A program made the position numbers and the translations under genes. The notes below the pieces were generated by a model. The model saw nothing but the letters and a program-made list of their open reading frames with translations. It was not told where the DNA came from and made no database searches. A stretch of DNA of 21,607 bases, from IMG/VR virus record IMGVR_UViG_3300029622_000040, positions 1 to 21,607 of that record; one strand, given 5' to 3'. Source of the stretch: a virus. Shown in pieces: positions 1 through 21,607 of this stretch (position 1 is the stretch's first letter; the number at the start of each line of letters is the position of its first letter).

Positions 1-99
1 GGAAAGAGCAAAGTAAACATTGATGATTTGTTTGTGGTTGAATGAAAAAAAGCTTTTTTATTGACACCATGCGTAAAAAAAACAATAATAAGAAATATT
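1..99. repeat. Terminal redundancy: 99 bp identical to 21509-21607 (genome closure overlap)
   Basis: Exact match read directly from both ends of the window. It includes the last 13 nt of the final CDS, its stop codon and the structural promoter. Confidence 0.95.
61..89 (+). promoter_or_regulatory. Sigma70-like promoter for the packaging/structural operon (TTGACA-17-AATAAT)
   Basis: TTGACA at 61-66, 17-bp spacer, AATAAT at 84-89. It is preceded by the palindrome AAAAAAGCTTTTTT at 46-59 (an UP-element-like A/T tract). It lies inside the terminal repeat, so it is duplicated at 21569-21597. Confidence 0.45.
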
Positions 100-137
100 A
101 AAAAGTTTAACAAAAAAAACGCTGTAAGTGTTTGAAA

Positions 138-536
138 ATGCAAAAAAGAACAGAGAAAAATTTAAACAAGGTTCGCGCGCTTATAAAACAAGGGATAACC
201 AACCAGCGCACGATTGCGGCCTTGTTAAAAATTTCCCTGCCGTGTGTCAATAAATTATGCAAACAAATCGCAGATGAACAGAGCCGCTCAAAGCCAAGCC
301 AGAATTTAAAGACAAACCAAGCGAAAAAAGACAAGAAAAGGCAGGAGGTTGCCGGCCGGATGGTTGCGGAGATTATAAACGAGACAGATGAGGATTTGCG
401 CGCAATCGACACCAAGCTGCTCTTTGAGCGTCTATTTAAAGACGCGCTAATCGAACTGGATAGCCGGCTTGGGGAAATGGAGGTTTTTGAATTAAAAGAA
501 ATGGTTCAGGGATTTGCGGAGCTGTTTAAAAGGTAA
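138..536 (+). CDS. Small terminase subunit-like protein with an N-terminal helix-turn-helix
   Basis: It sits immediately upstream of the large terminase. The N-terminal HTH-like stretch is KVRALIKQGITNQRTIAALLKISLPCVNKL. The ORF track starts at TTG 132, but the first ATG is at 138. Confidence 0.5.
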   Translation: MQKRTEKNLNKVRALIKQGITNQRTIAALLKISLPCVNKLCKQIADEQSRSKPSQNLKTNQAKKDKKRQEVAGRMVAEIINETDEDLRAIDTKLLFERLFKDALIELDSRLGEMEVFELKEMVQGFAELFKR

Positions 537-621
537 TTTTGTCGACATTTAACGAAAATTTTGTATAGTATCCCGAGAAAAGTCGAAACAAAAGATTATT
601 AATAATCGGATTTTAGACAAA

Positions 622-1860
622 ATGAATTTTGATTTTAATTTTGATTTAAGTTTTGATTTTGGCGAGAAGTTGCAAAAGGTGCTAAATTTCTATGATTTGT
701 GCAATTTGGCCGGCTATCCGCGGCCATATCCGGCACAAGTCGAAATGAAAGATTATCTAATAAAAACGCCGGGTGTGCATTTACTGCTTGGTTCTCGCGG
801 TTACGGAAAAACCGACTACGCTGTGATTATGGGGTGTGCCGAAGCGATTTTGAATAATCCAAATTTTAAAGTTCTGTTGATTGCAAAGGAACTGTCCCGC
901 GCACAGGCTATCATTAAGGAAGTGCGAGAAGTATTACTGCGCGCTGGAGTAAAATTCAAAAACAAAAGCGAAGTTATTCTACGGACGAAGGGGTGTGTCG
1001 GAAAAGACTCAAATCTTGAGGGGTTGGGCGTAAAATGTACAGGTTTACGCGGCCGTCATCCAGATTTAGTTATAATGGAAGACCCGATTACGCCTAAGGA
1101 TGACAGTGAGGCCGAACGGCTTACGGTCAAAAAAACTTACGAAGAAGTATGCAAATTAACGATGAATGTTGGAATTGTCGGGCAGCCTGTCCACAAACTA
1201 GACCTTTATCAGAGTTTGCGGGAAATCGTAAACACTCGGCTTATGCCGTATGGGACTATTCCAGAATTAGACCCCGACTTAGACGCGCAGCGGCTGGCCG
1301 GTGTTGATGAATTTTCTATACAGGCGTCTTATTTCCTAAACATCATGGACAGCTTAAAAATGCCATTTAGTCTAGTTAAGGAAGTGGATTTTGCTGCAAA
1401 AGAAACAATATGTTGGATTGACCCCTCACATAAGGGACGAGATTTTACGGCGGTTGTGTGCGGTGGGCGCAATTTGAGTGATTTCGTTTTAACAGGATTT
1501 TGTTTCGAAAAAGCATGGTATGATTGTACGGCCGAATTGTTGGAAATTAACAAAATTCTCAATATTTCGCACACTGTCATCGAAACTAACGGCCTTGGCG
1601 AGCTGCCAGTAAATGAATTTCGCAAGCTCGGCATGCCGTGCGTCGGCTTTAACACGACCATGAATAAGCACACTAAGATATTAAACTCTGCGGCATTTTC
1701 TCCTGATTTGAAACTGTCAAGATTGTCCGGGCTTCCGCCCGCATTAATGCAGGCACAGAAAATTTTTGTTGAACAAACAAAAAATTACGAATACAATTCA
1801 AAGCATGATGACGCGCCGGATAGTGTGGCAAGTTTAATTTGTTATGTGAGAGGCCTTTAA
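622..1860 (+). CDS. terL: Terminase large subunit (ATPase + nuclease)
   Basis: Walker A LLLGSRGYGKT. Walker B with catalytic glutamate, DLVIMED. C-terminal RNaseH-like nuclease acidic residues (WIDPSHKGRD and DDAPDSVA). Size is 412 aa. Confidence 0.9.
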   Translation: MNFDFNFDLSFDFGEKLQKVLNFYDLCNLAGYPRPYPAQVEMKDYLIKTPGVHLLLGSRGYGKTDYAVIMGCAEAILNNPNFKVLLIAKELSRAQAIIKEVREVLLRAGVKFKNKSEVILRTKGCVGKDSNLEGLGVKCTGLRGRHPDLVIMEDPITPKDDSEAERLTVKKTYEEVCKLTMNVGIVGQPVHKLDLYQSLREIVNTRLMPYGTIPELDPDLDAQRLAGVDEFSIQASYFLNIMDSLKMPFSLVKEVDFAAKETICWIDPSHKGRDFTAVVCGGRNLSDFVLTGFCFEKAWYDCTAELLEINKILNISHTVIETNGLGELPVNEFRKLGMPCVGFNTTMNKHTKILNSAAFSPDLKLSRLSGLPPALMQAQKIFVEQTKNYEYNSKHDDAPDSVASLICYVRGL

Positions 1861-2849
1861 TGTCTGGAGTTTTTAGTTTCTGGGGAAATCGTAAGCAGAC
1901 GATGAATGACGTTATTCGGTTGCCGGAAGTTTTCCCGTTTGGCTTATGTCGTAGAGATTTCATAATTTTTAAGCTAATCAGTATTTATGAAAATCTACTT
2001 ACGCAGTGTTACAACCGCAGCCGCGGCTTTCCTGAGGATATGGCGAAGACGCTTTGGAATAATTACGAAGCCTTAGACCCGCTAAACACGCGCGGAGTTA
2101 TCCGTCTTTTGTCTGTTGCTATGGCGGAACGCCGGACGATGGCGATTTCGTATGACCGCACGACTAACGTCGCAAAAGAGGCGCTGGGCGAGGCTTTCAA
2201 TGAGATTTATGAAGATTACAAAGAGAAAACCAAATCGGATAAAGGAATTTATGTCAACTTCGAACTTTATTACAAATCAAAGATAATTGCTGAATATCTG
2301 AATTTGCTTTACTCGGCTTTACTTTCAGCGTATGCGCAGCTCGGATTATCCCGAGCCATCCAATTTAAGGCCGACAAACTCCGCGAAACACAAGCGAATA
2401 ATTCCAACACTGAATGGAGAGACCAAGCCAAGGAAGTTGTTGACAGCGTTCTCGCTGGCCGTGCTGTTCTGATTTCGAAAGACGATGATTTAAAACTTCC
2501 CGAAGTTGACGCCGACCCAATCAAAAACGCGATTGAATTTTACGGTCAGCTTATTGCTGGCGAGCTTGGCGTATCTACCAGCTTTATTACCGGAATTATT
2601 CGAAACGGCATGAACTCGACGGGCGAAGCCGAATTAGTGGCCGACGAAAACGGTATCAAAGTATTTTTCTATTCGATTTTTAAGCCGTGCTGTGATGGGC
2701 TTTATAAAATCAACCTTGAATTTGTAACCGAAAACTACCGGAAAACGGCGGAGTTGGCTAAAGTAATTCCGTATTTGGAAAGCTCGGAAGCTGTCTCAAA
2801 CGAGCAGCTGGAAAGATTTGTTAATTATGTACTAGGCGAAAATGATTGA
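1860..2849 (+). CDS. Putative portal protein (small, about 329 aa)
   Basis: Position directly after terL; its ATG overlaps the terL stop (TAATG). It precedes the MuF-like and scaffold genes. No motif was recognised. Confidence 0.35.
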   Translation: MSGVFSFWGNRKQTMNDVIRLPEVFPFGLCRRDFIIFKLISIYENLLTQCYNRSRGFPEDMAKTLWNNYEALDPLNTRGVIRLLSVAMAERRTMAISYDRTTNVAKEALGEAFNEIYEDYKEKTKSDKGIYVNFELYYKSKIIAEYLNLLYSALLSAYAQLGLSRAIQFKADKLRETQANNSNTEWRDQAKEVVDSVLAGRAVLISKDDDLKLPEVDADPIKNAIEFYGQLIAGELGVSTSFITGIIRNGMNSTGEAELVADENGIKVFFYSIFKPCCDGLYKINLEFVTENYRKTAELAKVIPYLESSEAVSNEQLERFVNYVLGEND

Positions 2850-3459
2850 AAATCTGTGGTTACCGGCAGCATATCTGAAAAGGGTTTTGCCCGCAGGATT
2901 TTTTAAAGAAAGGCTGTTGGGAAAAAAATTCTCAATTAAGCGGACTTTTCTGCGTGCGCTGGTAACTGCTGCCGAACTTGATGAACAGGAGCTAAAAGAT
3001 AGCTACGCCAGAACAATTAAGTTTTATCGCGAAAAAGAAAAAAAACTTGAGGATGAAGAGGTCAAAAACCCCGAAAAGAAAGCCGTCAATAATGAAAAAC
3101 TTTTAAAATCGCGTGTCGAAAATCTTGTTGTTTATTCCGAAAGCCAGCGATTAAAGGATGAACACAAAGGCGAGTATTATATATGGTTGCCGTCTTCTTC
3201 AAAAGAGCCGCGGCCGCAGCACCAGCTTTTATATGGCGAAATTCGAAAAGTTGGAGATGGCGAGTTTCCAAATGAAGATTATGGCTGTAAATGTGGCACT
3301 TATTTCCTTGGCGCAAATCCGCTTGAAAATGACTTTTTAACAGACGAACAAAAAAATAAGCTTGAAAAATTGATAAAAAAAGATAAGACTAAAGAAGTAA
3401 ATAGTAGTTTAACCAAAATTTTAAAAGAGAAGAAGCATGGAAGACGAAAAGGAAGATAA
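2842..3459 (+). CDS. Head morphogenesis protein, divergent Phage_Mu_F / SPP1 gp7-like
   Basis: ATGA overlap with the upstream gene. The stretch YIWLPSSSKEPRPQHQLLYGEI resembles the W..D.RVR..H..L.G core of the Mu F family. The C-terminus is lysine-rich. Confidence 0.35.
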   Translation: MIENLWLPAAYLKRVLPAGFFKERLLGKKFSIKRTFLRALVTAAELDEQELKDSYARTIKFYREKEKKLEDEEVKNPEKKAVNNEKLLKSRVENLVVYSESQRLKDEHKGEYYIWLPSSSKEPRPQHQLLYGEIRKVGDGEFPNEDYGCKCGTYFLGANPLENDFLTDEQKNKLEKLIKKDKTKEVNSSLTKILKEKKHGRRKGR

Positions 3460-4027
3460 GCAGGAAACGCCGGCAACGGTGACGCTGACAAAAGAACAGT
3501 TTGAGGCTCTTGTTGGTAAAAAAGAAGAAAAAAAGGAAAGCATAGCGGACGAAGCCATCAAGCGTCTTGAAAATGAAAAAAAAGAAAAAGAGGAAACTGC
3601 GGAAATCGAAGACGCTATTAAATTCAATCTTTCGATTTCCGAATTTGTTTCCAAAAACAAAAACATTCTGCCGGATGAGACCGAAAATATTATCAAGACG
3701 GCCGAAGAAAGAAACTTTAAAAATTCCAGTGAAAAGGCTAATGCCATTAGAAAAGGTATTATTGAGGCTTTTGTTAAATATAAGGAAAATGTTGAAAAAC
3801 TCCCGCAGAGCATTCAGGCGGAAGTTGCGCGCTTCAACAGTTTTACTGAACGTGAAAAAGAAGCGCAATCGAAAAGATTTTGGAGTATTGTTGAGGTTGG
3901 CGCCGAATATAAAATTTTATCGCGCAAAGCTGAGCAGCTTCAAAATAACGGCGGACATGGCGCGGCCGAGAATAGCGCCTTTGAACAAAGGTTCCTTGAA
4001 CAGGGGAAAATTTTCAGAAAAGGTTAA
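3437..4027 (+). CDS. Scaffolding protein (E/K-rich coiled coil)
   Basis: Highly charged, helical, low-complexity sequence (EEKKE repeats). It lies between the portal/MuF genes and the capsid gene. Confidence 0.5.
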   Translation: MEDEKEDKQETPATVTLTKEQFEALVGKKEEKKESIADEAIKRLENEKKEKEETAEIEDAIKFNLSISEFVSKNKNILPDETENIIKTAEERNFKNSSEKANAIRKGIIEAFVKYKENVEKLPQSIQAEVARFNSFTEREKEAQSKRFWSIVEVGAEYKILSRKAEQLQNNGGHGAAENSAFEQRFLEQGKIFRKG

Positions 4028-4030
4028 AAA

Positions 4031-4477
4031 ATGACGAAAATTCTTGCTACGCCCTATGAGAGGGGAAACGCCGACCAGATTGTCTCAAGAAAATACGCCG
4101 AAAAAGTCCTTGAGGGCTTGGCTGTTTACGAGACAAACGACGGCATGAAACTCTTGACTAGTGGACATAACCCCACCGGCATTGCTGGCCGGCAGGGTTT
4201 GGCAGCTGGCGATGTCGTGGCTAGTGGACGTAAAATTTACGTTCAGTGTCCGGAAGACGCAGCGCCGACCGCTTTTGCTCCGGTATATGTCGACCCCAAC
4301 ACAGGGTTGTTTACCGAAAAAAACACGCAGAACTTCTTAAAAATTAACGCTACATTTGCAAAAGATGTGGCTGTTGTTAAATGTATGGCTTCCGATGGAA
4401 CTCTTTACAACGCAGTTTGTATTGATATGCCTGCCCCGATGGGCGTTTTGGAAGTTGTAGCGGCTCCGGGAGAATAA
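4031..4477 (+). CDS. Head protein, possibly a decoration or minor capsid protein
   Basis: Shine-Dalgarno AAAAGG upstream. It is located between the scaffold and major capsid candidates. No motif was recognised. Confidence 0.3.
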   Translation: MTKILATPYERGNADQIVSRKYAEKVLEGLAVYETNDGMKLLTSGHNPTGIAGRQGLAAGDVVASGRKIYVQCPEDAAPTAFAPVYVDPNTGLFTEKNTQNFLKINATFAKDVAVVKCMASDGTLYNAVCIDMPAPMGVLEVVAAPGE

Positions 4478-4480
4478 TCA

Positions 4481-5374
4481 ATGGCTACTGATGTAATTAC
4501 GTCGCTTAAAACGACCGAGGAATATTTGAGAGCTGTGCAGCTTTCCTATTCTCCAATTTCTCTGGCGATTGCCCGCCAGGTTAAGCACGATATGACGAAT
4601 GACGTTAAAGTCATCTTTAAACGTCTTGACGTCGAACGTGACAACATCGTCGCGCAAAATTTGACGATGGGACAGACAGAAGTTTCCGCAATTAAAGCCA
4701 ACGAAACGCAGAAAGTTTTTAACAAGTATGTAAAAGGCGCGAAAATTACGCAGTCTGTTTATAACTTTAATTTCAACCGCATACCCGAACTGGTGTCCAA
4801 AATTATTCGTGGTTACTCCATGATTTTTGACACCATTACCCTTTATGGAGACGGGCTGAACAACGGTATCCTGACGACTGATGACGTCAATAACGTTGTC
4901 AATGACAGTGTTGAGCTTGACGCTACGGCCGACATCATGGCACTGGCTAATCAGGTGGTTGATGTAATTTCTGGCCTGAAGCAGCAGGTTCGCGAATACA
5001 CGGCTTCGACAAACGTACTTGTTTACGTCTACGGCGGTCAGCTGGTTCGTCTGCTTGACAAAATTACTTATAACGGCGCGACCATCCGCGAAATCATTGA
5101 AAAGGAATGGCCGGAAGCTACGTTTGTAGTAATTCCCGAAATCGTTTTGACCGGAAACTCAATGGGCTTTAAGGTCTTTTCACAGGATTTGGTAACCCTG
5201 AACTATACCCGCCTGCCGATTATGTCGGAGAACGGTTATAATCCGGAAGACAAGTATTTCTGGGGTAACTTTGAACTCGGCTCTACCATGGTGGATATTG
5301 AGGAAAAAGGCGCAGGCATTGAACAGCCGATTACTATCAAATCCGCTGCCGGTACCCGCTCGAAATCGAAGTAG
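4481..5374 (+). CDS. Major capsid protein candidate
   Basis: Strong ribosome binding site (GGGAGAATAATCAATG). Size 297 aa. Sits at the canonical position after the scaffold in the head module. Confidence 0.45.
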   Translation: MATDVITSLKTTEEYLRAVQLSYSPISLAIARQVKHDMTNDVKVIFKRLDVERDNIVAQNLTMGQTEVSAIKANETQKVFNKYVKGAKITQSVYNFNFNRIPELVSKIIRGYSMIFDTITLYGDGLNNGILTTDDVNNVVNDSVELDATADIMALANQVVDVISGLKQQVREYTASTNVLVYVYGGQLVRLLDKITYNGATIREIIEKEWPEATFVVIPEIVLTGNSMGFKVFSQDLVTLNYTRLPIMSENGYNPEDKYFWGNFELGSTMVDIEEKGAGIEQPITIKSAAGTRSKSK

Positions 5375-13207: not shown

Positions 13208-13552
13208 ATGTTGAGAATAGCTAAAATCGAAGACGAAAACTATAGGCTTTCTGTGGTTGAGACCGAAACGGAATTAACGCCGATGTGGGAAAACCTCGGG
13301 TACTCGCTGATGAAATGTGAAAAAGCTTGGGATGGGAACTATTACCCGATTGGCCGCGCGCCGGTTGAGCCGGCCGCGCACAAAGCGCAACAGCGAATTA
13401 TTGAGCTTAAAACTTATTTGTCGCAGACAGATTATATTTGCATGAAGTTAGCGGAGGGAGCCGCCTCGCCCGAAGAATACGCGGACGTAATCAAGCAACG
13501 CGAGGCCGCCCGGGAAGAAATCAGAGAATTAGAGCCGCTTGTTGGCAATTAA
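13208..13552 (+). CDS. Tail fibre assembly / chaperone-like protein (hypothetical)
   Basis: Position after the fibre gene. Ribosome binding site AAGGTG. Confidence 0.25.
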   Translation: MLRIAKIEDENYRLSVVETETELTPMWENLGYSLMKCEKAWDGNYYPIGRAPVEPAAHKAQQRIIELKTYLSQTDYICMKLAEGAASPEEYADVIKQREAAREEIRELEPLVGN

Positions 13553-13902
13553 GTGGCTCTAAATTTTAAGCCGTAAATGCCATAAATTGCCGTATTTTCT
13601 TTTGATTTTTTTAAGAATGTTGTCGTTGTGCCCTTTGCGTATGGTTCGATGTACCAGTATTTGTAGGTGTCGGCTATACCAATTGGAACGGCGGAAGCTC
13701 TCAACAAATAATCAAGATTTTTTGTTGAAAAAAACCTCGGTATAAGTACACTACCTGAATCAGGTGCGTAGGTTATAATTATAAAAGGAAAATTTGTAAA
13801 TGGTTGATTAAGCGTTATATCCCCACCGGGGTAGAAACCCTCAAATAAAACTTCCTGCTGATAGCTATTATAATTATTTAAATCGCTGATAAAACTATTC
13901 AT
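13549..13902 (-). CDS. Hypothetical protein; a convergent minus-strand gene that looks like a moron
   Basis: ATG at 13902 (MNSFISDL...). Its 3' end overlaps the fibre-assembly gene by 4 nt. It is the only minus-strand gene in the structural half. Confidence 0.35.
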   Translation of the reverse strand: MNSFISDLNNYNSYQQEVLFEGFYPGGDITLNQPFTNFPFIIITYAPDSGSVLIPRFFSTKNLDYLLRASAVPIGIADTYKYWYIEPYAKGTTTTFLKKSKENTAIYGIYGLKFRAT

Positions 13903-16408: not shown

Positions 16409-16436
16409 ACAAAACCCCCACCTTAAAAAAAGTGGG
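16402..16436. terminator. Bidirectional rho-independent terminator
   Basis: An 11-bp stem (AAAACCCCCAC/GTGGGGGTTTT) around a 9-nt loop, with T-runs on both strands. It lies between the convergent lysis operon and the minus-strand RHH gene. Confidence 0.75.
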
Positions 16437-16458
16437 GGTTTTGCCTGGTTAACATACT

Positions 16459-16650
16459 TTAGGAGTGACCTATATTATCGAATTTTTCAGACAAAAAGTC
16501 AAGTGTATATTTTTCACGATAAAATTGAATAAATTCAAGTAGGATAAATTCAATCAAATTGCTTCGCGTCCGATTTTCAAGCATAGCGATTGAATTTAAA
16601 GCTTCCATAGTTTGAGGTTCAACCCGTATGCAATATTGTTGTTTTGCCAT
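16459..16650 (-). CDS. Ribbon-helix-helix (Arc/CopG/MetJ-like) DNA-binding protein
   Basis: N-terminal beta-strand QYCIRVEP followed by two helices. AGGAGA 8 nt upstream of the ATG at 16650. Confidence 0.55.
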   Translation of the reverse strand: MAKQQYCIRVEPQTMEALNSIAMLENRTRSNLIEFILLEFIQFYREKYTLDFLSEKFDNIGHS

Positions 16651-16660
16651 GATATTTCTC

Positions 16661-17320
16661 CTATTTAACAACTGGGGTTAATTTTTCAACAATTTCCAAT
16701 CCCGGAATTTCCCGAACGCCGTTTCGGATGGCCGTGTTTACGGCCTTGGTATCAACCGACAGAAATTCGGCCGGAACTTTCTGAATGTCAACAATTTTGA
16801 AAGTGATATATTTGCGAAATGACGCGGCAGAATTACCAAGAGTGTTATCAATCTTGATTTCAGAATTATCAATAACAGCGTTTACTTTGCTGTCGATAGA
16901 TGAAATAATTGCGGCTTGCGTAACCTCATCATATTGCCCGGCACTTTCGCGCAAAGCCTGCAATTCATCAAGTTTGCGCAACGCTTCTTCTTCGGCCGTC
17001 TTTTGCGCGGCAGAAGCTATCAAATTGAGCTTTTCAAGCTTGAGTTCGGCATAATCGGCAATCTTCGACCGTAAAATCTTTTCAGCTTCGGTTAGAAAAT
17101 CCAGCGCATTTTTGTACTTATCAGAAATTTCTTTTAAGGACGACTTAATCGGTTTTTCTTCTTCGGCTTTCAAAGATTTTACAGTTTTGACATAGCTGTT
17201 AATATTTTTTAACATTTCGCAAGCTTTTAGGTTGTCGCCCTCGTTTGCAATTTCCGAAGCTCGGATTTTCAACAGAAATTCACGCGCTTTTATTTCAACG
17301 GGATTAATTAAATTTGACAT
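16661..17320 (-). CDS. Sipho_Gp157-like coiled-coil protein
   Basis: Long N-terminal coiled coil. The C-terminal segment FRKYITFKIVDIQKVPAEFLSVDTKAVNTAIRNGVREIPGLEI resembles the Gp157 family C-terminus (F..I.K.P...ID...iP.E......D...l..A.k.G.eIPG.el). GGAG ribosome binding site. Start at 17320 (MSNLIN). Confidence 0.45.
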   Translation of the reverse strand: MSNLINPVEIKAREFLLKIRASEIANEGDNLKACEMLKNINSYVKTVKSLKAEEEKPIKSSLKEISDKYKNALDFLTEAEKILRSKIADYAELKLEKLNLIASAAQKTAEEEALRKLDELQALRESAGQYDEVTQAAIISSIDSKVNAVIDNSEIKIDNTLGNSAASFRKYITFKIVDIQKVPAEFLSVDTKAVNTAIRNGVREIPGLEIVEKLTPVVK

Positions 17321-17355
17321 TTTTTTACTCCATAAATTGTTAATGACAAAACACA

Positions 17356-17395
17356 TATAGCACATAAATATACAATGTCAATACAATAAATATAA
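17356..17395 (-). promoter_or_regulatory. Candidate leftward promoter (TTGACA-N16-TATATG on the minus strand) for the Gp157-like/RHH operon
   Basis: The reverse complement contains TTGACATTGTATATTTATGTGCTATATG. It sits in the divergent intergenic region 17321-17466. Confidence 0.3.
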
Positions 17396-17404
17396 ATTTA
17401 GGTG

Positions 17405-17433
17405 TTGACTTTAATGAAAAAATGATTATTAAT
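17405..17433 (+). promoter_or_regulatory. Rightward early promoter (TTGACT-16/17-TATTAA) plus the conserved leader GTTAACAACAACAGGAGTA at 17440-17458
   Basis: A -35 TTGACT at 17405-17410. The leader is 19/19 identical to the one at 20174-20192. Confidence 0.4.
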
Positions 17434-17466
17434 AATCTTGTTAACAACAACAGGAGTAAAAAAATA

Positions 17467-18405
17467 ATGGAAAATGGAATTTATTTTAATCTGCCCGAAG
17501 ACGTCTATTTTGCCGAGCAGCGTTTAGATTTTACGGGAATTTCGGCATTGCTGAAAAGCCCGACGGAATATTGGTTCAGCAGCCGGCTCAATCCGCTTTT
17601 TGAAGAAAAGAAAACGCCAGCTTTTTTTGAGGGAAAAATCTACCACACTTTAATTTTAGAGCCGGATGAGTTCGCAAATAGGTATGTTGTCGAGCCTGAT
17701 AGCGTTGCTAAAATGAGCCGGAAAAGCTCGGCATATTGGGCATGGGCGCAAGGTCAAAAAAAACAAATCATCAAAGCCGACTTAGCAGAAAAAATAACAA
17801 ATTCGCTTTTGTATCTGGGGAAACCGGGACAGGTTCTTGACAGTGAAATTTTTAAGCAGGGACAGTCAGAGGTAAGCATATTATTCGAGTATCGCGGCGT
17901 CGCCTGCAAAGCCAGAATTGACTATTTGAAATCTATCCAGATGTGGGATTTAAAAACAGTCTGTGCGCAGGGTCAAAATTTTTCCGACTGGTGCAAAAAG
18001 TACTTTTTTAAATACAAAACTTTCATTCAACTCTGTTTTTATCGGGAAGCCGCGAGAGCTGCCAAGGGTTTTACAGAAAAACAGGTTTTTGGCACCCCGC
18101 CGCAGCTGGAGTTTTGGAAAGACTGGCGGGAAATCGAAGATATTTTGCCCGGTGTGGTTTTCATCAATAAAAATTGTCCGCAGGCCGAAGTAAAGTTATT
18201 CGATGATGAACATTGTCCCGATATGTACCGCCTAGCGCGCGGCCAAATCGAAAAAGGGATTGAGATATTTAAGAATTATTTAAATGAATATGGCTACAAT
18301 AAAGCTTGGTTGGAAAAAGTGGACGTCCGAAATCTGTTTTTTAAAGATGAAGATTTTCCACAGTCTTTTGCTGAATTGTTAACTATTTTAGGGGAAAATG
18401 AATGA
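17467..18405 (+). CDS. PD-(D/E)XK nuclease, RecE/exonuclease VIII-like (DUF3799-type)
   Basis: GKIYHTLILEPDEF fits the G...H....E motif. ARIDYLKSIQMWDLKT provides the D...(D/E)-x-K residues. ATG at 17467 with a CAGGAGT ribosome binding site. The track's longer N-terminus from 17422 is rejected. Confidence 0.6.
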   Translation: MENGIYFNLPEDVYFAEQRLDFTGISALLKSPTEYWFSSRLNPLFEEKKTPAFFEGKIYHTLILEPDEFANRYVVEPDSVAKMSRKSSAYWAWAQGQKKQIIKADLAEKITNSLLYLGKPGQVLDSEIFKQGQSEVSILFEYRGVACKARIDYLKSIQMWDLKTVCAQGQNFSDWCKKYFFKYKTFIQLCFYREAARAAKGFTEKQVFGTPPQLEFWKDWREIEDILPGVVFINKNCPQAEVKLFDDEHCPDMYRLARGQIEKGIEIFKNYLNEYGYNKAWLEKVDVRNLFFKDEDFPQSFAELLTILGENE

Positions 18406-18770
18406 AATCACATTTGAAGTTTATCGACAGTCTCATTTGCTTACGCTGTGGCTGCCAAAATCCAACACATCATCATCTTTTGCGCGTCCGCCCGGAATAT
18501 CTACCAAAAAAAGTGGGCGAGGAAGATTTTTTAATTCCCAAAATCAAGAGCAAAGGAATGGGAACCAAAAGCGATGACCGTTTTACCCTACCGCTTTGCT
18601 CAAAATGCCATCAGATGTTGCACATTTGCGGAAATGAACGGTATTTCTTGCGGTGTATTGGCGTTTCAGAACCTGAAGAAGTAGCCTTGTACCTTTGGAA
18701 AAACACGGGAAATCTTGAAAAATGCTTAAAAGAATTGACGGAAATAAGGATTTTGGGCGGTGGATTTTAG
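18402..18770 (+). CDS. HNH / endonuclease VII-like zinc-binding nuclease candidate
   Basis: CLRCGC...THHH then DDRFTLPLCSKCHQMLH gives the pattern Cx2C...HH...Cx2CHx3H. It overlaps the exonuclease gene stop. Confidence 0.4.
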   Translation: MKSHLKFIDSLICLRCGCQNPTHHHLLRVRPEYLPKKVGEEDFLIPKIKSKGMGTKSDDRFTLPLCSKCHQMLHICGNERYFLRCIGVSEPEEVALYLWKNTGNLEKCLKELTEIRILGGGF

Positions 18771-19158
18771 GGTTGCACGATTTGAGAGAAAAGGAGGCCG
18801 TCAAGTTTTTGTTGGCTTCCCGTCTGGCGGGTATTTTTTAGGCCAAAATGGGATACTTTACCGGGGAGACATTATTAGTAATACTACCGACAGAAGAAAA
18901 AAAGACTTTCATATAGTAGATTTTTTTTCTGGACGGTGTGACGAGGATAAACAAAAGATATATGCGCACGATGTAGTTTATTCATCTACGTTAAAAACCT
19001 CGGGAATTGTTTTATTTCGGCCGGAAAAAGGAGCTTTTATTTTTTGTGTCCAGCGCGGAAAAATTACAATACCGTATAGATTTTTAGACATGTATGAAGT
19101 TTCTTTGAAAAAAAAATACTCAATTTTTGAAAAAAATGTATTGACAAGTAATCCATAA
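18760..19158 (+). CDS. Hypothetical protein, possibly YopX-like
   Basis: GTG start with an AAGGA ribosome binding site. KQKIYAHDVVY resembles the GkeIYEGDIv core of YopX. Its 3' end runs into the promoter repeat. Confidence 0.3.
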   Translation: MDFRVARFERKGGRQVFVGFPSGGYFLGQNGILYRGDIISNTTDRRKKDFHIVDFFSGRCDEDKQKIYAHDVVYSSTLKTSGIVLFRPEKGAFIFCVQRGKITIPYRFLDMYEVSLKKKYSIFEKNVLTSNP

Positions 19159-19169
19159 TAGATTACTAT
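19141..19169 (+). promoter_or_regulatory. Early promoter with an embedded palindromic operator, copy 1. The repeat unit spans about 19113-19200
   Basis: TTGACA at 19141-19146. AGTAATC at 19147-19153, then N7, then GATTACT at 19161-19167, a perfect inverted repeat filling the spacer. Candidate -10 TACTAT(AAC). A T/A tract lies upstream. Confidence 0.5.
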
Positions 19170-19204
19170 AACATCATAAGTTAACAAACAACAGGAGTGA
19201 GAAA

Positions 19205-19456
19205 ATGACGGATGAGATTAAAAATGGGATTGCGTTAGAAATTTACGACAGGCAACTTGAAATTCTTAAAGTTAGCAGTCATAAATATTATAACCGAGAA
19301 AGTCTCGATTATGATGTCGAAGATTATCTTTTCCAAGACCAGGAAGACGCCTTGAACGAAGCCAAGCAGGACTTCATTGAGGAAATCCGCTTAGTTTTTG
19401 GGAATGATAAAAACCCGGCATTGCTTGAGCTTGAAAGGATTGCAAACAATGTGTGA
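19205..19456 (+). CDS. Small acidic protein (83 aa, D/E-rich)
   Basis: Perfect leader plus GGAGTGA ribosome binding site. High net negative charge. Confidence 0.45.
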   Translation: MTDEIKNGIALEIYDRQLEILKVSSHKYYNRESLDYDVEDYLFQDQEDALNEAKQDFIEEIRLVFGNDKNPALLELERIANNV

Positions 19457-19610
19457 GAAAAAAAGAACACGTCAGGAAATTACGCGAGAGGCTCAGCGAA
19501 AATATCGCGAGCGTCTGAAAAAAAAAGGAAAACGCGGCCGCCTCATTTATTTGACAAATGAGGAGTACGAGGAAGTCAAAAGATTTATCAAGGATTTGAG
19601 AAATGATTGA
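19449..19610 (+). CDS. Small basic protein, possibly DNA-binding (TREAQRKYRERLKKKGKRGR)
   Basis: Its ATG at 19449 overlaps the upstream stop. Basic region followed by a helical tail. The TTG 19398 start given in the track is less parsimonious. Confidence 0.35.
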   Translation: MCEKKRTRQEITREAQRKYRERLKKKGKRGRLIYLTNEEYEEVKRFIKDLRND

Positions 19611-19701
19611 GAATTTTTTTTATTGGTTTTGCGGATTTTTCGCAACATTCGCACCCCTTTATTTTTTAATTCAATATCTTAGATGAAAAGGAAAAAAAAC
19701 A

Positions 19702-20124
19702 ATGATTGAGAACAAAGAACAATTTAAAGAGTTTCGCGTAAACAACGGTTATACTCAAAAGGAGTTTGCCGCAGCGCTGGGCTTTAGCGAGGATTATATT
19801 TCAGCAATTGAGCGCGGCACTCGGCCATTAACCGAATGTATTTGCGCAAAAGTAGAAAATCTAAGACGGCCGACGGCAACTCTGAAAGTTGTCATCGATG
19901 AGGCTGATGAAAAAAACAAAAGGGTTGCGGCCGAAGAATTGAAAACTTATGGCGATGAATATATTGATTGCATGGAAAAAATCGAAGAAGCACGACTGAC
20001 GATGAAAGATATTATCGACAGCGCCAAGGAAAAAGGAATCTCAAAAGACATGATAATCGCCTATTGCACCACAAAAACTTTGACCGAGTTCAATAAAAAA
20101 ATTATAAAAAGTGCAATTTTTTGA
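19702..20124 (+). CDS. XRE-family helix-turn-helix transcriptional regulator
   Basis: HTH YTQKEFAAALGFSEDYISAIERGTRPLT. AAAAGGA ribosome binding site. It is flanked by the two promoter-operator repeats. Confidence 0.7.
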   Translation: MIENKEQFKEFRVNNGYTQKEFAAALGFSEDYISAIERGTRPLTECICAKVENLRRPTATLKVVIDEADEKNKRVAAEELKTYGDEYIDCMEKIEEARLTMKDIIDSAKEKGISKDMIIAYCTTKTLTEFNKKIIKSAIF

Positions 20125-20134
20125 AAAAAATGAG

Positions 20135-20166
20135 TTGACAAGTAATCCATAATAGATTACTATAAT
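20135..20166 (+). promoter_or_regulatory. Early promoter with an embedded palindromic operator, copy 2. The repeat unit spans about 20113-20195
   Basis: TTGACA at 20135-20140. AGTAATC at 20141-20147, N7, GATTACT at 20155-20161. TACTATAAT at 20158-20166. About 93% identical to copy 1 across roughly 85 bp. Confidence 0.5.
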
Positions 20167-20198
20167 ATCATAAGTTAACAACAACAGGAGTAAGTAAG

Positions 20199-20390
20199 AT
20201 GAAAAACATTGACGCAATCGATTTCGAAATCATGGTTGAGAAAGCTTTGAATACAGGTAAAAGCTCATTGAGTTTCCAAATTTATGGATACGATAACGAA
20301 TGGGTTCGCAATATGGTTGACGGCTTGCCGGAATGCCTGCGCGAAGCTATTGATGATGTCGACGGCGCTGAAATTAATTTTAAGGATTAA
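20199..20390 (+). CDS. Small acidic hypothetical protein (63 aa)
   Basis: Conserved leader plus GGAGTAAG ribosome binding site. Confidence 0.4.
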   Translation: MKNIDAIDFEIMVEKALNTGKSSLSFQIYGYDNEWVRNMVDGLPECLREAIDDVDGAEINFKD

Positions 20391-20394
20391 CTAG

Positions 20395-20760
20395 ATGACT
20401 TTCAGGGTTATGGTTGTTAAAAAGGACGGACGCCCAATCGGCGTCCGCGCCGCCCAAATAAACGGCCGGGTTGTTTATTTAGCTTTGCGGGATGAGCCGG
20501 AGCCTATGAATTGGTATGACGCCGTAAAAGTAGGCATTCCGAGCAAGGAAGAATGGATGGAGATTGCTGAAAATTTTGACGCCGTAAACAAAGCCCTCAT
20601 CAAAGCAGGCGGCGAGCCGTTGAAAAAAAACTGGTACTGGTCTTCGTCGGAGTATAGCAGCTACTACGCGTGGCGGTCGTACCTTAACTACAGTTTCGGT
20701 TTGACCAACTACTACGGTAAAGACAAGCATATCTACGTTCGCCCGGTGCTAGCTTTATGA
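20395..20760 (+). CDS. DUF1566 (Lcl C-terminal-like) domain protein
   Basis: NWYDAVK...IPSKEEWMEIAEN and KNWYWSSSEYSSYYAWRSYLNYSFG...KHIYVRPV fit the tW..A / LPt.eEL / YWSSt..AW...F..G....VRxVR pattern. Confidence 0.5.
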   Translation: MTFRVMVVKKDGRPIGVRAAQINGRVVYLALRDEPEPMNWYDAVKVGIPSKEEWMEIAENFDAVNKALIKAGGEPLKKNWYWSSSEYSSYYAWRSYLNYSFGLTNYYGKDKHIYVRPVLAL

Positions 20761-20796
20761 TTTTTTAACTCTTTAACTATTTTAGGATGAAAAAAA

Positions 20797-21216
20797 ATGA
20801 AAATTAAGGATATGAGCTTAACGGATGACTGGAAAGCTGGAAAATTAAAAGCAGGGACGTATTATGTCAAGCTATCAAACGGGCGTGTAGATGTCGCCAA
20901 GCTAAGTAAATTTAATAGGTTTTATGCGATATGTTACACGTTTGAAGTTGTCGAAGTTATAGCGCCGTGCAGTTACGACCATTTTGTTGAACTTACCGAA
21001 AAGGTCAAAGGACTTGAAAACAAACAGCTCCGCCAGTTGCTGAAAGAGTGCAAAGAATATTTATCAGACGTTGATACATATTTCACTAAAATAGAAGAAC
21101 AGCAATTCGAAATTAAACAACTAAAACAAAGAATCGAATTTGCGAAACAAGCCGTTGATTTGTTTTTCAAAACAGAAGATGAGAGTAAACTTTTGGAGAT
21201 TGCAGAATGGGAATGA
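20797..21216 (+). CDS. Hypothetical protein with a C-terminal coiled coil (KIEEQQFEIKQLKQRIEFAKQA)
   Basis: Ribosome binding site TAGGATGA. It shares a motif with the next gene. Confidence 0.4.
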   Translation: MKIKDMSLTDDWKAGKLKAGTYYVKLSNGRVDVAKLSKFNRFYAICYTFEVVEVIAPCSYDHFVELTEKVKGLENKQLRQLLKECKEYLSDVDTYFTKIEEQQFEIKQLKQRIEFAKQAVDLFFKTEDESKLLEIAEWE

Positions 21217-21524
21217 AAAGTTTGATGTGTGAAATCTTATGTGATGAACAGAAAGAAATTATAAAAAGTCTTGAAATCCTGATAAAAAGTAAGAATAAAA
21301 CTATTTTAGAAAAAAGTAAAAGAGCTAATGAAATGTTTAAGCTTTCTTATAACAGAAAATTAAAGATAGAAGAACAGCAAGCAGAGATTGATCGGCTTAG
21401 AGAAGCTATTCGGTTAGCCCGAGATACAGCATATCAATCGACGCAAGATTGCCCTCGGTGTGGTTTTATTGATGATTTGTTAACCAAGACCTTAAACGAA
21501 GAAAGTGAGGAAAGAGCAAAGTAA
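21207..21524 (+). CDS. Hypothetical coiled-coil protein with a C-terminal CPRCG motif. Its last 16 nt lie in the terminal redundancy
   Basis: KIEEQQAEIDRLREAIRLARD is paralogous to the motif in the upstream gene. The stop codon is at 21522-21524. Confidence 0.4.
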   Translation: MGMKSLMCEILCDEQKEIIKSLEILIKSKNKTILEKSKRANEMFKLSYNRKLKIEEQQAEIDRLREAIRLARDTAYQSTQDCPRCGFIDDLLTKTLNEESEERAK

Positions 21525-21607
21525 ACATTGATGATTTGTTTGTGGTTGAATGAAAAAAAGCTTTTTTATTGACACCATGCGTAAAAAAAACAATAATAAG
21601 AAATATT
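21509..21607. repeat. Second copy of the 99-bp terminal redundancy
   Basis: Identical to 1-99. Confidence 0.95.

What the first reader, a model, noticed from the sequence alone, without database searches (positions are those of the whole stretch)
16459..17395. Divergent minus-strand Gp157-like + RHH pair in the position usually taken by an immunity module, with no integrase
These two genes, together with the moron at 13549-13902, are the only leftward genes in the genome. They are transcribed away from the early rightward promoter and end at a bidirectional terminator. One encodes a Sipho_Gp157-family coiled-coil protein. That family is best known from Streptococcus thermophilus phages, where Gp157 variation is linked to phage resistance and replication. 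The other encodes a ribbon-helix-helix repressor-type protein. The pair could be a repressor/exclusion or anti-phage module, a replication-associated module, or a toxin-antitoxin-like pair. The genome has no integrase, so if it lysogenises it would do so as an episome.
Basis: partly seen in the sequence, partly recalled or inferred. Interest (0 to 1): 0.55.

Follow-up and report, generated by a model that had tools for sequence, protein, structure and literature searches.

The report
Phage recombination helper plus small regulator
The two leftward genes of this small gut phage are most likely a helper protein for its DNA-recombination nuclease plus a tiny DNA-binding regulator, not a lysogeny or immunity switch; the helper belongs to a large, unstudied phage protein family distantly related to the "Gp157 / Gam-like" proteins.

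Summary
The two minus-strand genes are real and form one operon. A is 16661-17320 (219 aa) and B is 16459-16650 (63 aa). The operon starts at a sigma-70-type promoter set back-to-back with the rightward early promoter, and it ends at a strong bidirectional terminator (16410-16443). B is a ribbon-helix-helix (RHH) protein. A is not a Pfam Sipho_Gp157 member: there was no hit at E<=1, and none among 80 relatives. Its C-terminal ~65 residues are nevertheless homologous to the Gp157 C-terminal domain (hhalign 96.8%, E 3e-10; reversed controls <=0.4%). A belongs to a large uncharacterised family (phrog_10477) with 1,682 clusters at 50% identity. That family is almost absent from cultured phages. 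In five related small-phage loci at 32-43% identity, the layout "RecE-like exonuclease <- -> A -> RHH" is conserved. More distant members sit beside a YqaJ exonuclease, a RecT-like annealase, SSB or other exonucleases. I found no integrase, no prophage copy and no toxin. Best reading: A is an accessory protein of the recombination module, filling the Gp157/Gam slot, and B is its small regulator. The immunity, exclusion and toxin-antitoxin readings are not supported. The biochemical role of A is inferred, not shown.

The parts
16661..17320 (-). Gene A, 219 aa. It has a long helical (coiled-coil-like) N-terminal region of about 150 aa and a basic C-terminal beta-alpha-alpha-beta domain (residues ~154-219). 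It belongs to phrog_10477. The C-terminal domain is homologous to the Sipho_Gp157 C-terminal domain.
   Evidence: Translation. PHROG 1.9e-15. No Pfam hit. AF2 pLDDT 93.9. hhalign against 15 Gp157 proteins gave 96.8% and E 2.9e-10, with reversed controls at 0.2-0.4%. pI is 9.5 for the C-terminal part and 5.1 for the N-terminal part.
16459..16650 (-). Gene B, 63 aa. It is a ribbon-helix-helix DNA-binding protein in the same operon as A, separated by a 10-nt gap that holds its RBS.
   Evidence: The exact sequence is in NCBI nr as DAI21714.1, 'bifunctional protein PutA' (that is, the PutA RHH domain). A small RHH gene follows A in all five related loci.
16410..16443 (.). Bidirectional intrinsic terminator. 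It is shared by the leftward A-B operon and by the end of the rightward late/lysis operon.
   Evidence: Inverted repeat I5. Folding energies and z-scores on both strands.
17354..17381 (-). Candidate leftward promoter of the A-B operon. The -35 is TTGACA (17381-17376), followed by a 16-nt spacer and an extended -10, TGcTATATG (17362-17354).
   Evidence: Read from the sequence. TTGACA plus a -10 at the same place is seen in five relatives. Population variants change mainly the spacer and keep the -35. No transcription data are available.
17405..17436 (+). Candidate rightward early promoter. The -35 is TTGACT (TTGACA in variant genomes), and there is an A/T-rich -10 region, TATTAA/TAATAAT.
17337..17349 (.). 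Near-palindrome TTGTTAATGACAA in the 5' leader of the A transcript. It is a candidate operator.
   Evidence: invariant in 11 related contigs. Weak evidence: not enriched genome-wide.
17438..17447 (.). Perfect 10-bp palindrome TTGTTAACAA in the 5' leader of the exonuclease transcript. It mirrors the site on the A side and is a candidate operator.
   Evidence: It is the single perfect copy in the genome. With <=1 mismatch there are 6 sites against 2.0 expected, which is not significant.
17467..18405 (+). Divergent neighbour: a RecE/exonuclease VIII-like PDDEXK nuclease (DUF3799), 312 aa. It is the proposed functional partner of A.
   Evidence: Pfam 3.1e-11. phrog_412 2.5e-30. NCBIfam exoVIII 1.4e-13. 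The divergent pairing with A is conserved in Dulem virus 29, L032, L033, L034 and L035.

Best explanation
The pair is a small early operon of the phage's recombination/replication region. It is not a lysogeny or immunity module.

Gene A encodes a helical protein with a basic C-terminal domain of the Gp157 type. I infer that it is the accessory component that works with the divergently transcribed RecE-like exonuclease on the ends of phage DNA. This is the slot filled in other phages by Gp157, Mu-Gam-like, DUF1351 or DUF2483 proteins next to recombinases. The likely roles are binding or protecting DNA ends, or handing them to the nuclease or recombination machinery.

Gene B is a ribbon-helix-helix DNA-binding protein. 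I infer that it autoregulates the leftward promoter, and perhaps the back-to-back rightward promoter, through the palindromic sites in the two leaders.

Shown:
- gene structure, promoter-like elements and the terminator;
- the RHH identity of B;
- the domain-level homology of A to Gp157;
- the conserved synteny with exonucleases, an annealase and SSB.

Inferred:
- DNA-end binding by A, and cooperation with the exonuclease;
- the operators of B.
For: 1. A1 (80 family members) against 15 bona fide Gp157 proteins gave hhalign 96.8%, E 2.9e-10 over the C-terminal 65 columns. Reversed-sequence controls gave 0.2-0.4%.
2. Bona fide Gp157 genes that I fetched are mostly (10 of 12) adjacent to Erf, Sak4/NTP-binding or RecT-type recombinase genes. 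Literature reports that Gam, Gp157, DUF1351 and DUF2483 occupy the same slot next to SSAP genes (PMC8093625).
3. The arrangement 'DUF3799 exonuclease <- -> A -> RHH' is conserved at 32-43% A identity in five independent loci.
4. More distant family members have recombination neighbours:
   - YqaJ exonuclease - x - A - x - SSB (L036);
   - a RecT-like gene overlapping the start of A (L037);
   - exonuclease-like - A - RNase_T (L038);
   - A followed by an SSB-like gene (L007).
5. The C-terminal domain is basic, pI 9.5.
6. B is RHH.
7. The A-B operon and the divergent sigma-70 promoters are conserved.
8. Negative evidence against lysogeny: no integrase; close relatives occur only on 20-23 kb contigs; none was found in 185,579 species genomes.
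9. The Gp157 homologue Orf33 of phage 2972 is non-essential, but its loss lowers plaque size and titre. This fits an accessory replication/recombination role (PMC13376191).
Against: - No biochemical function is established even for Gp157 itself. 'Mu Gam-like end protection' is an annotation by homology.
- My direct tests of A against Mu Gam are negative: hhalign 6.9% and 2%.
- Foldseek of the confident A model found no solved relative.
- The N-terminal two-thirds of A does not align with Gp157.
- The window clade has an exonuclease but no recognisable annealase, unlike the usual Gp157 setting.
- A and the exonuclease are on opposite strands, so they are co-located but not co-transcribed.
- Two distant contexts (L011/12, L013) show no clear recombination neighbour.
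- The operator sites are not statistically supported and are not obviously conserved in the 32-43% relatives.
Confidence: 0.6

Rival explanations
1. A is itself the missing partner of the exonuclease. It would be a new kind of single-strand annealing or synapsis protein that replaces RecT/Erf/Sak-type annealases in these small phages, with B as its regulator.
For: - The window clade has an exonuclease next to A but no recognisable annealase: 6 loci, counting the window itself.
- The same is true of L036 (YqaJ ... A ... SSB) and L038.
- Exonuclease-annealase pairs are the rule in phages (established knowledge; PMC8093625).
- No other early protein of the window matches an annealase.
Against: - In L037 a RecT-like annealase is present immediately upstream of an A-family gene. 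So A does not generally replace an annealase.
- The predicted fold, a long helical bundle plus a small beta-alpha-alpha-beta domain, resembles no known annealase fold.
- Several small unknown proteins nearby could be unrecognised annealases.
- Host RecA could do the job.
Confidence: 0.12
2. This is an immunity-type switch. B, the RHH protein, would be the maintenance repressor of a non-integrating (episomal or carrier-state) lysogen, like Arc/Mnt of P22. A would be a co-expressed exclusion or anti-defence factor.
For: - The position, between the lysis genes and the early genes, is where Sfi21-type temperate phages carry integrase and cI.
- There are divergent back-to-back promoters with palindromes in both leaders.
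- RHH repressors exist in phage immunity regions (established knowledge).
- An XRE-type HTH protein in the rightward operon (19702-20124) could be the opposing regulator.
Against: - There are no integrase, partition or plasmid-replication genes.
- No prophage or larger-replicon copy of close relatives was found in 185,579 species genomes.
- Contigs are uniformly 20-23 kb.
- The RHH gene is the second, promoter-distal gene.
- In distant relatives A occurs without an RHH gene and inside unidirectional recombination modules.
- There are no defence-family hits apart from weak coiled-coil matches.
Confidence: 0.15
3. This is a toxin-antitoxin-like or abortive-infection pair, with B as an RHH antitoxin and A as the toxin or effector.
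For: - Many type II antitoxins are RHH proteins. Orthologues of B also hit the CopG_antitoxin, BrnA and ParD-like models weakly.
- PADLOC PDC-S26 matches A at E 6e-4.
Against: - A matches no toxin family and is a helical, coiled-coil-type protein.
- The gene order, with the RHH gene second, is atypical.
- The PADLOC match is 17 bits over the helical region.
- A-family genes commonly occur without any RHH neighbour.
- The RHH hits are generic to the fold.
Confidence: 0.04

Closest known systems
Sipho_Gp157 (PF05565), e.g. Sfi21 orf157 and phage 2972 Orf33. These are often annotated 'Mu Gam-like end protection'.
   Same: - The C-terminal ~65-aa domain is homologous (hhalign 96.8%).
- The overall plan is the same: a helical N-terminal part followed by that domain.
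- Both are located in phage recombination/replication regions.
   Different: - A fails the Pfam model.
- A is about 60 aa longer, and its N-terminal 150 aa cannot be aligned.
- In the window, A is paired with a divergent RecE-like exonuclease and followed by an RHH gene. It is not placed next to an Erf/Sak4/RecT gene.
- A's family is essentially absent from GenBank phages: only Dulem virus 29 was found.
Phage Mu Gam / Ku-like host-nuclease inhibitor (PF07352; PDB 2P2U)
   Same: - Gp157 proteins are reported to match Gam by HHpred (99.4%, PMC10530707). My shallow profiles give 67%, E 5e-5 in the equivalent C-terminal region.
- The proposed role, acting at DNA ends beside a recombination nuclease, is analogous.
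   Different: - Direct A-versus-Gam comparisons are not significant.
- The A model has no Foldseek match to any solved structure.
- The link is therefore only transitive.
Lambda Red (Gam-Bet-Exo) and RecET recombination modules
   Same: A 5'-3' exonuclease-type gene (RecE-like PDDEXK) sits with an adjacent small accessory gene in the early region.
   Different: No annealase (Bet/RecT) is recognisable in the window. The accessory gene is divergent rather than co-transcribed. A is unrelated in sequence to lambda Gam.
CopG/Arc/Mnt-type ribbon-helix-helix repressors
   Same: B has the beta-strand / helix / helix pattern and matches solved RHH proteins. It is a small, probably dimeric operator binder encoded beside divergent promoters.
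   Different: B has a ~20-aa C-terminal tail that is absent in its orthologues. There is no evidence that it controls lysogeny. Its operators are not identified.

Membership tests
Sipho_Gp157 (Pfam PF05565) | Match to the family HMM at or above the gathering score | tested here: not met
   A gave no hit at E<=1. None of 80 relatives hit at E<=0.01. The positive control, Sfi21 orf157, scored 141.5 bits.
Sipho_Gp157 (Pfam PF05565) | Homology of the C-terminal domain (strand ... P-x-E-[YF] ... D-K ... G ... I-x-G ... [IV]-[KR] at the C-terminus) | tested here: met
   hhalign of A1 against A3 gave 96.8%, E 2.9e-10 over 65 columns. Reversed controls gave 0.2-0.4%.
Sipho_Gp157 (Pfam PF05565) | Alignable N-terminal helical region and a length of about 150-185 aa | tested here: not met
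   A is 219 aa. The global hhalign confidence over the N-terminal part is about 0.
Sipho_Gp157 (Pfam PF05565) | Gene adjacent to a single-strand annealing protein gene (Erf/Sak4/RecT) | tested here: not met
   The window neighbour is a RecE-like exonuclease, and no annealase was found. The feature is met in one distant A-family locus, L037. Most true Gp157 genes I sampled (10 of 12) had such a neighbour.
phrog_10477 (PHROGs; labelled 'exonuclease') | Match to the family profile over its full length | tested here: met
   E 1.9e-15, covering residues 8-213 of A and positions 23-239 of the 243-position profile. Relatives score 5e-22 to 5e-14. A has no nuclease domain, so the label is probably transferred from neighbouring genes.
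Mu Gam / Ku-like end-binding proteins (PF07352) | Sequence-profile or fold similarity to Gam | tested here: not met
   A1 against the Gam profile gave 6.9%. The C-terminal profile against Gam gave 2%. Foldseek against the PDB gave no hit at E<0.1. The only indirect link is Gp157 against Gam at 67%, plus the literature.
Mu Gam / Ku-like end-binding proteins (PF07352) | Binds double-strand DNA ends and blocks exonucleases | not testable with these tools
   This needs biochemistry.
Ribbon-helix-helix (CopG/Arc/MetJ) superfamily | N-terminal beta-strand followed by two helices, with a sequence-profile match to known RHH proteins | tested here: met
   The profile of B plus 5 orthologues hit AvtR at 2.2e-5, PutA RHH at 8.5e-4, and CopG at 0.006, with a weak match to Arc at 0.48. 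Of the six sequences, 6/6 hit RHH_1 and 5/6 hit RHH_5. B alone is below the Pfam cut-off: 15 bits against 20.5.
Temperate-phage immunity module (repressor/Cro switch with integrase or plasmid maintenance) | Integrase, or partition/plasmid-replication genes | tested here: not met
   None were found in Pfam or PHROGs scans of the ORFs. None is annotated in Dulem virus 29.
Temperate-phage immunity module (repressor/Cro switch with integrase or plasmid maintenance) | Occurrence as a prophage in bacterial genomes | tested here: not met
   There was no close relative of A in 185,579 species-representative genomes. Metagenome copies are on 21-23 kb contigs. The search reaches close relatives only.
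Temperate-phage immunity module (repressor/Cro switch with integrase or plasmid maintenance) | Divergent promoters with shared operators | tested here: inconclusive
   The back-to-back promoters are present and conserved. The palindromes in both leaders are not statistically supported.
Type II toxin-antitoxin pair | A recognisable toxin partner next to the RHH antitoxin | tested here: not met
   A hits no toxin family. The A family usually occurs without an RHH gene.
Two-component phage recombinase (exonuclease + annealase) | Both an exonuclease and an annealase gene are present | tested here: not met
   The exonuclease is present. No annealase is recognisable in the window.

The most novel reading that the evidence does not exclude
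Proteins of the A family (phrog_10477) may be a new class of exonuclease partner. They would be either a previously unrecognised single-strand annealing/synapsis protein or a new DNA-end-binding factor. That would let minimal (~21 kb) phages run recombination-dependent replication with only a RecE-like nuclease, with no classical annealase and no replication initiator.
Probability: 0.12. Interest if true: 0.7.

Novelty: new variant of a known kind. Interest (0 to 1): 0.36.

Why it matters
- It gives a functional context (recombination module, Gp157-type C-terminal domain) to a large dark-matter phage family. The family has 1,682 clusters at 50% identity, no Pfam model, and a probably wrong PHROG label.
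- It corrects the tempting reading that any leftward gene pair next to the early promoter is an immunity module.
- It flags a set of very small gut phages that carry a RecE-like exonuclease without a recognisable annealase or replication initiator. If the helper protein turns out to be the nuclease's partner, it could be useful for recombineering and would add a new component to phage recombination systems.
- Gp157-type proteins are also known triggers of phage satellites (PMC13376191). Divergent relatives such as A are therefore candidate targets of host or satellite sensing.

Tried and rejected
- **Direct Pfam/NCBIfam membership of A.** There was no meaningful hit; only coiled-coil noise.
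- **PADLOC.** PDC-S26 matched at 17 bits over the helical region. I judged this compositional.
- **PDB by sequence.** Neither A alone nor the profile gave anything but coiled coils.
- **Foldseek of the pLDDT-94 model.** There was no significant match in the PDB. BFVD gave one unnamed hit at E 9e-5 with TM 0.40.
- **AF2 model of Sfi21-type Gp157, for a fold comparison.** It failed (pLDDT 43, shallow alignment), so no structure-level Gp157/Gam comparison was possible.
- **Mu Gam link for A.** Not significant, either directly or with a merged C-terminal profile.
- **The search for homologous proteins.** It returned only near-identical sequences for A, for Gp157 and for the A1 profile.
- **The search for related loci.** With the single protein it found nothing in IMG/VR or in GTDB genomes.
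- **The 23-nt direct repeat in the intergenic region (D2).** I rejected it as an operator because one copy varies among population variants.
- **The 25-nt mirror repeat (I1).** It is largely explained by the similar RBS plus A-rich spacers of the two divergent genes.
- **The TTGTTAACAA motif.** It is not enriched in the genome.

Full report
**What is there**

The window is a complete circular phage genome. Its first ~99 nt are repeated at 21509-21607, and GC content is 41%. Its only relatives in GenBank phages are two records of Dulem virus 29 (23.5 kb, lemur faeces), which have the same gene order. Near-identical copies occur on more than 100 metagenomic contigs of 20-23 kb.

Almost all genes run rightward. 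Three run leftward:
- A, at 16661-17320, 219 aa;
- B, at 16459-16650, 63 aa;
- a 117-aa ORF at 13549-13902.

Independent gene calls on related contigs agree with this.

A starts at the ATG at 17320, behind a GGAG. B starts 10 nt after the stop codon of A, behind AGGAGA, so the two form one operon. The operon ends at a GC-rich hairpin (16410-16443) flanked by U-runs on both strands. Its dG is -20.2 and -27.3 kcal/mol, and no shuffle out of 200 folds as well. This hairpin also ends the rightward late/lysis transcript.

Upstream of A, the 146-nt intergenic region holds two back-to-back sigma-70-type promoters:
- leftward: TTGACA, 16 nt, TGcTATATG (17381-17354);
- rightward: TTGACT (TTGACA in variants) plus an A/T-rich -10 (17405-17436).

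The same TGTCAA...TTGACA layout is present in five relatives whose A proteins are only 32-43% identical.

**Gene B**

On its own, B is a sub-threshold RHH match:
- RHH_1, E 0.025;
- Arc-like PHROG, 0.006;
- LexA-regulated CopG-family model, 0.005.

In all five related loci a small gene follows A, and all of these carry the same strand-helix-helix pattern. A profile of the six proteins hits solved RHH proteins: AvtR at 2e-5, the PutA RHH domain, HP0222, CopG and Arc. All six sequences hit Pfam RHH_1, and five of them hit RHH_5. The exact sequence is in NCBI nr, labelled with the PutA RHH domain. B is an RHH DNA-binding protein.

**Gene A: the Gp157 question**

PF05565 does not match A at E<=1, and it does not match any of 80 diverse relatives at E<=0.01. 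As a positive control, Sfi21 orf157 scores 141 bits.

A exhaustive HMMER search of 1.84 billion cluster representatives shows that A belongs to a large family of ~200-240-aa proteins. It found 1,682 clusters at E<=1e-3 and 89 at E<=1e-10. The family corresponds to phrog_10477 and is nearly absent from cultured phages.

The AlphaFold model is confident (pLDDT 93.9, pTM 0.83). It has four helices, including one of 68 residues, followed by a small strand-helix-helix-strand domain. No solved structure matches it.

I then built a profile from 15 bona fide Gp157 proteins taken from Streptococcus, Staphylococcus, Bacillus, Clostridium, Lactobacillus, Lactococcus, Geobacillus, Vibrio, Escherichia, Aeromonas and Synechococcus phages. 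Against this profile, the A family matches at 96.8% probability and E 2.9e-10. The match is restricted to the C-terminal 65 columns (A residues 154-219, Gp157 residues 90-157). Reversed-sequence controls give 0.2-0.4%. The N-terminal helical parts do not align.

A is therefore a distant, domain-level relative of Gp157 and not a member of the Pfam family. One of the 80 relatives also touches DUF1351.

The further link to Mu Gam is only transitive:
- Gp157 against Gam gives 67%, E 5e-5 with my shallow profiles, and is reported at 99.4% by HHpred (PMC10530707);
- A against Gam is not significant.

**Context**

Most (10 of 12) of the true Gp157 genes I fetched lie beside an Erf, Sak4/NTP-binding or RecT-type recombinase gene. 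This fits the published observation that Gam-like, Gp157, DUF1351 and DUF2483 genes occupy one slot next to annealase genes (PMC8093625).

For the A family:
- The window, Dulem virus 29 and four metagenomic relatives (L032-L035) all show a RecE/exoVIII-like PDDEXK nuclease (DUF3799, phrog_412) transcribed divergently from A, with an RHH gene after A.
- More distant members lie in unidirectional modules:
  - YqaJ exonuclease - 140 aa - A - 99 aa - SSB (L036);
  - a RecT-like annealase overlapping the start of A (L037);
  - exonuclease-like - A - RNase_T (L038);
  - A followed by an SSB-like gene (L007).
- Two contexts are uninformative (L011/12, L013).

The recurring partners are recombination proteins, and in particular exonucleases of three different folds.

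**Against an immunity, exclusion or TA reading**

- No integrase, recombinase, partition or plasmid-replication gene is detectable (Dulem annotation).
- Close relatives of A were not found in 185,579 species-representative genomes, nor in IMG/VR.
- The promoter-proximal gene is not a DNA-binding repressor.
- A matches no toxin or defence family beyond a 17-bit coiled-coil hit.
- The A family usually occurs without an RHH gene.

The positional analogy is real: Sfi21 carries integrase and cI at the equivalent place. The gene content does not match, however.

The 'phage resistance' association of Gp157 comes from an old database comment. The experimental data I found concern phage 2972 Orf33, a 157-aa Gp157 homologue. 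It is non-essential, and its loss reduces plaque size and titre. It binds the Stl repressor of a satellite and thereby induces that satellite (PMC13376191).

**Regulation**

Both divergent transcripts carry a palindrome in their leaders:
- TTGTTAATGACAA at 17337-17349;
- the perfect TTGTTAACAA at 17438-17447.

Both are invariant in 11 related contigs. In those contigs, variation clusters in the spacer of the leftward promoter: 7 of the 11 variable positions fall within 21 nt.

These palindromes are reasonable candidate operators for B, or for the XRE-type protein encoded at 19702-20124. The motif is not enriched in the genome, though, and I could not find it in the 32-43% relatives. Autoregulation by B is therefore an inference of moderate confidence.

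**Verdict**

The family assignment is half right. The most eye-catching interpretation (immunity module, episomal lysogeny, TA) is not supported.

The best-supported explanation is a recombination-module accessory protein of the Gp157 type, working with the adjacent RecE-like exonuclease, plus a small RHH regulator (confidence about 0.6).

The main open point, and the only part with real novelty potential, is that these ~21-kb phages have an exonuclease and A but no recognisable annealase or replication initiator. A could therefore be a new kind of nuclease partner (about 0.12). Overall this is a new variant of a known kind, of moderate interest.

Noticed in passing
whole window (early region 17467-21524 and 132-536): The genome encodes a RecE-like exonuclease and a DUF968/HNH-like protein. 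It has no recognisable single-strand annealing protein, SSB, primase, helicase or replication initiator. How this 21.5-kb phage replicates is unclear.
   Followed up: partly
L002 (ENA ERZ28660942 scaffold_256, 76,486 bp), locus coordinates 1-4549: One 76-kb contig carries the same A-B / exonuclease / structural region. Where the terminase should follow, however, it continues into Tad2-like genes, an IS1595 DDE transposase and a RepB_primase/DUF5906 protein. It could be a larger recombinant phage, an insertion or a chimeric assembly.
   Followed up: no
window 1-99 and 21509-21607: The first ~99 nt are repeated exactly at the end of the window. This is an assembly overlap that indicates a circular or terminally redundant genome of about 21,508 bp.
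   Followed up: yes
phrog_10477 (family of gene A, window 16661-17320): PHROGs labels this family 'exonuclease'. The protein is a helical bundle with a small C-terminal domain and has no nuclease motif. The label is probably transferred from the neighbouring exonuclease genes.
   Followed up: partly
P0153: A 715-aa representative matches the A query in 6 separate stretches. This suggests a protein with repeated copies of the A-type domain.
   Followed up: no
window 13549-13902 (-): This is the third leftward gene (117 aa), sitting between the tail-fibre region and the lysis genes. It has no hit in Pfam, PHROGs or PADLOC and is conserved in near-identical contigs. It looks like a moron of unknown function.
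   Followed up: partly
window 17354-17375: Among 11 near-identical population variants, 7 of the 11 variable positions in the 190-nt promoter region fall in the spacer and -10 flank of the leftward promoter. Both leaders and both -35 boxes are invariant or improve towards consensus (TTGACT to TTGACA at 17410).
   Followed up: partly
window 19702-20124 (+): A 140-aa XRE-type HTH protein (HTH_3, 4.5e-9) with a C-terminal extension lies in the rightward early operon. It is an alternative or additional regulator of the divergent promoters.
   Followed up: no
window 18760-19158 (+), compared with L035 1691-2056: The 132-aa ORF after the DUF968 gene has no family hit. In relative L035, a comparable (not strictly equivalent) position after the DUF968 gene is held by a YopX-like protein (weak Pfam hit).
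   Followed up: no
GenBank annotations of Gp157 homologues: The same family is variously annotated 'resistance protein', 'Mu Gam-like end protection', 'host-nuclease inhibitor' and 'hypothetical'. The 'resistance' label appears to propagate from the Pfam comment rather than from an experiment on the protein.
   Followed up: partly
window 20395-20760 (+): A 121-aa protein has a DUF1566/Lcl C-terminal-like domain (Pfam E 2e-4, below the cut-off; phrog_4245 7e-8). Dulem virus 29 carries a DUF1566 protein elsewhere in its genome.
   Followed up: no
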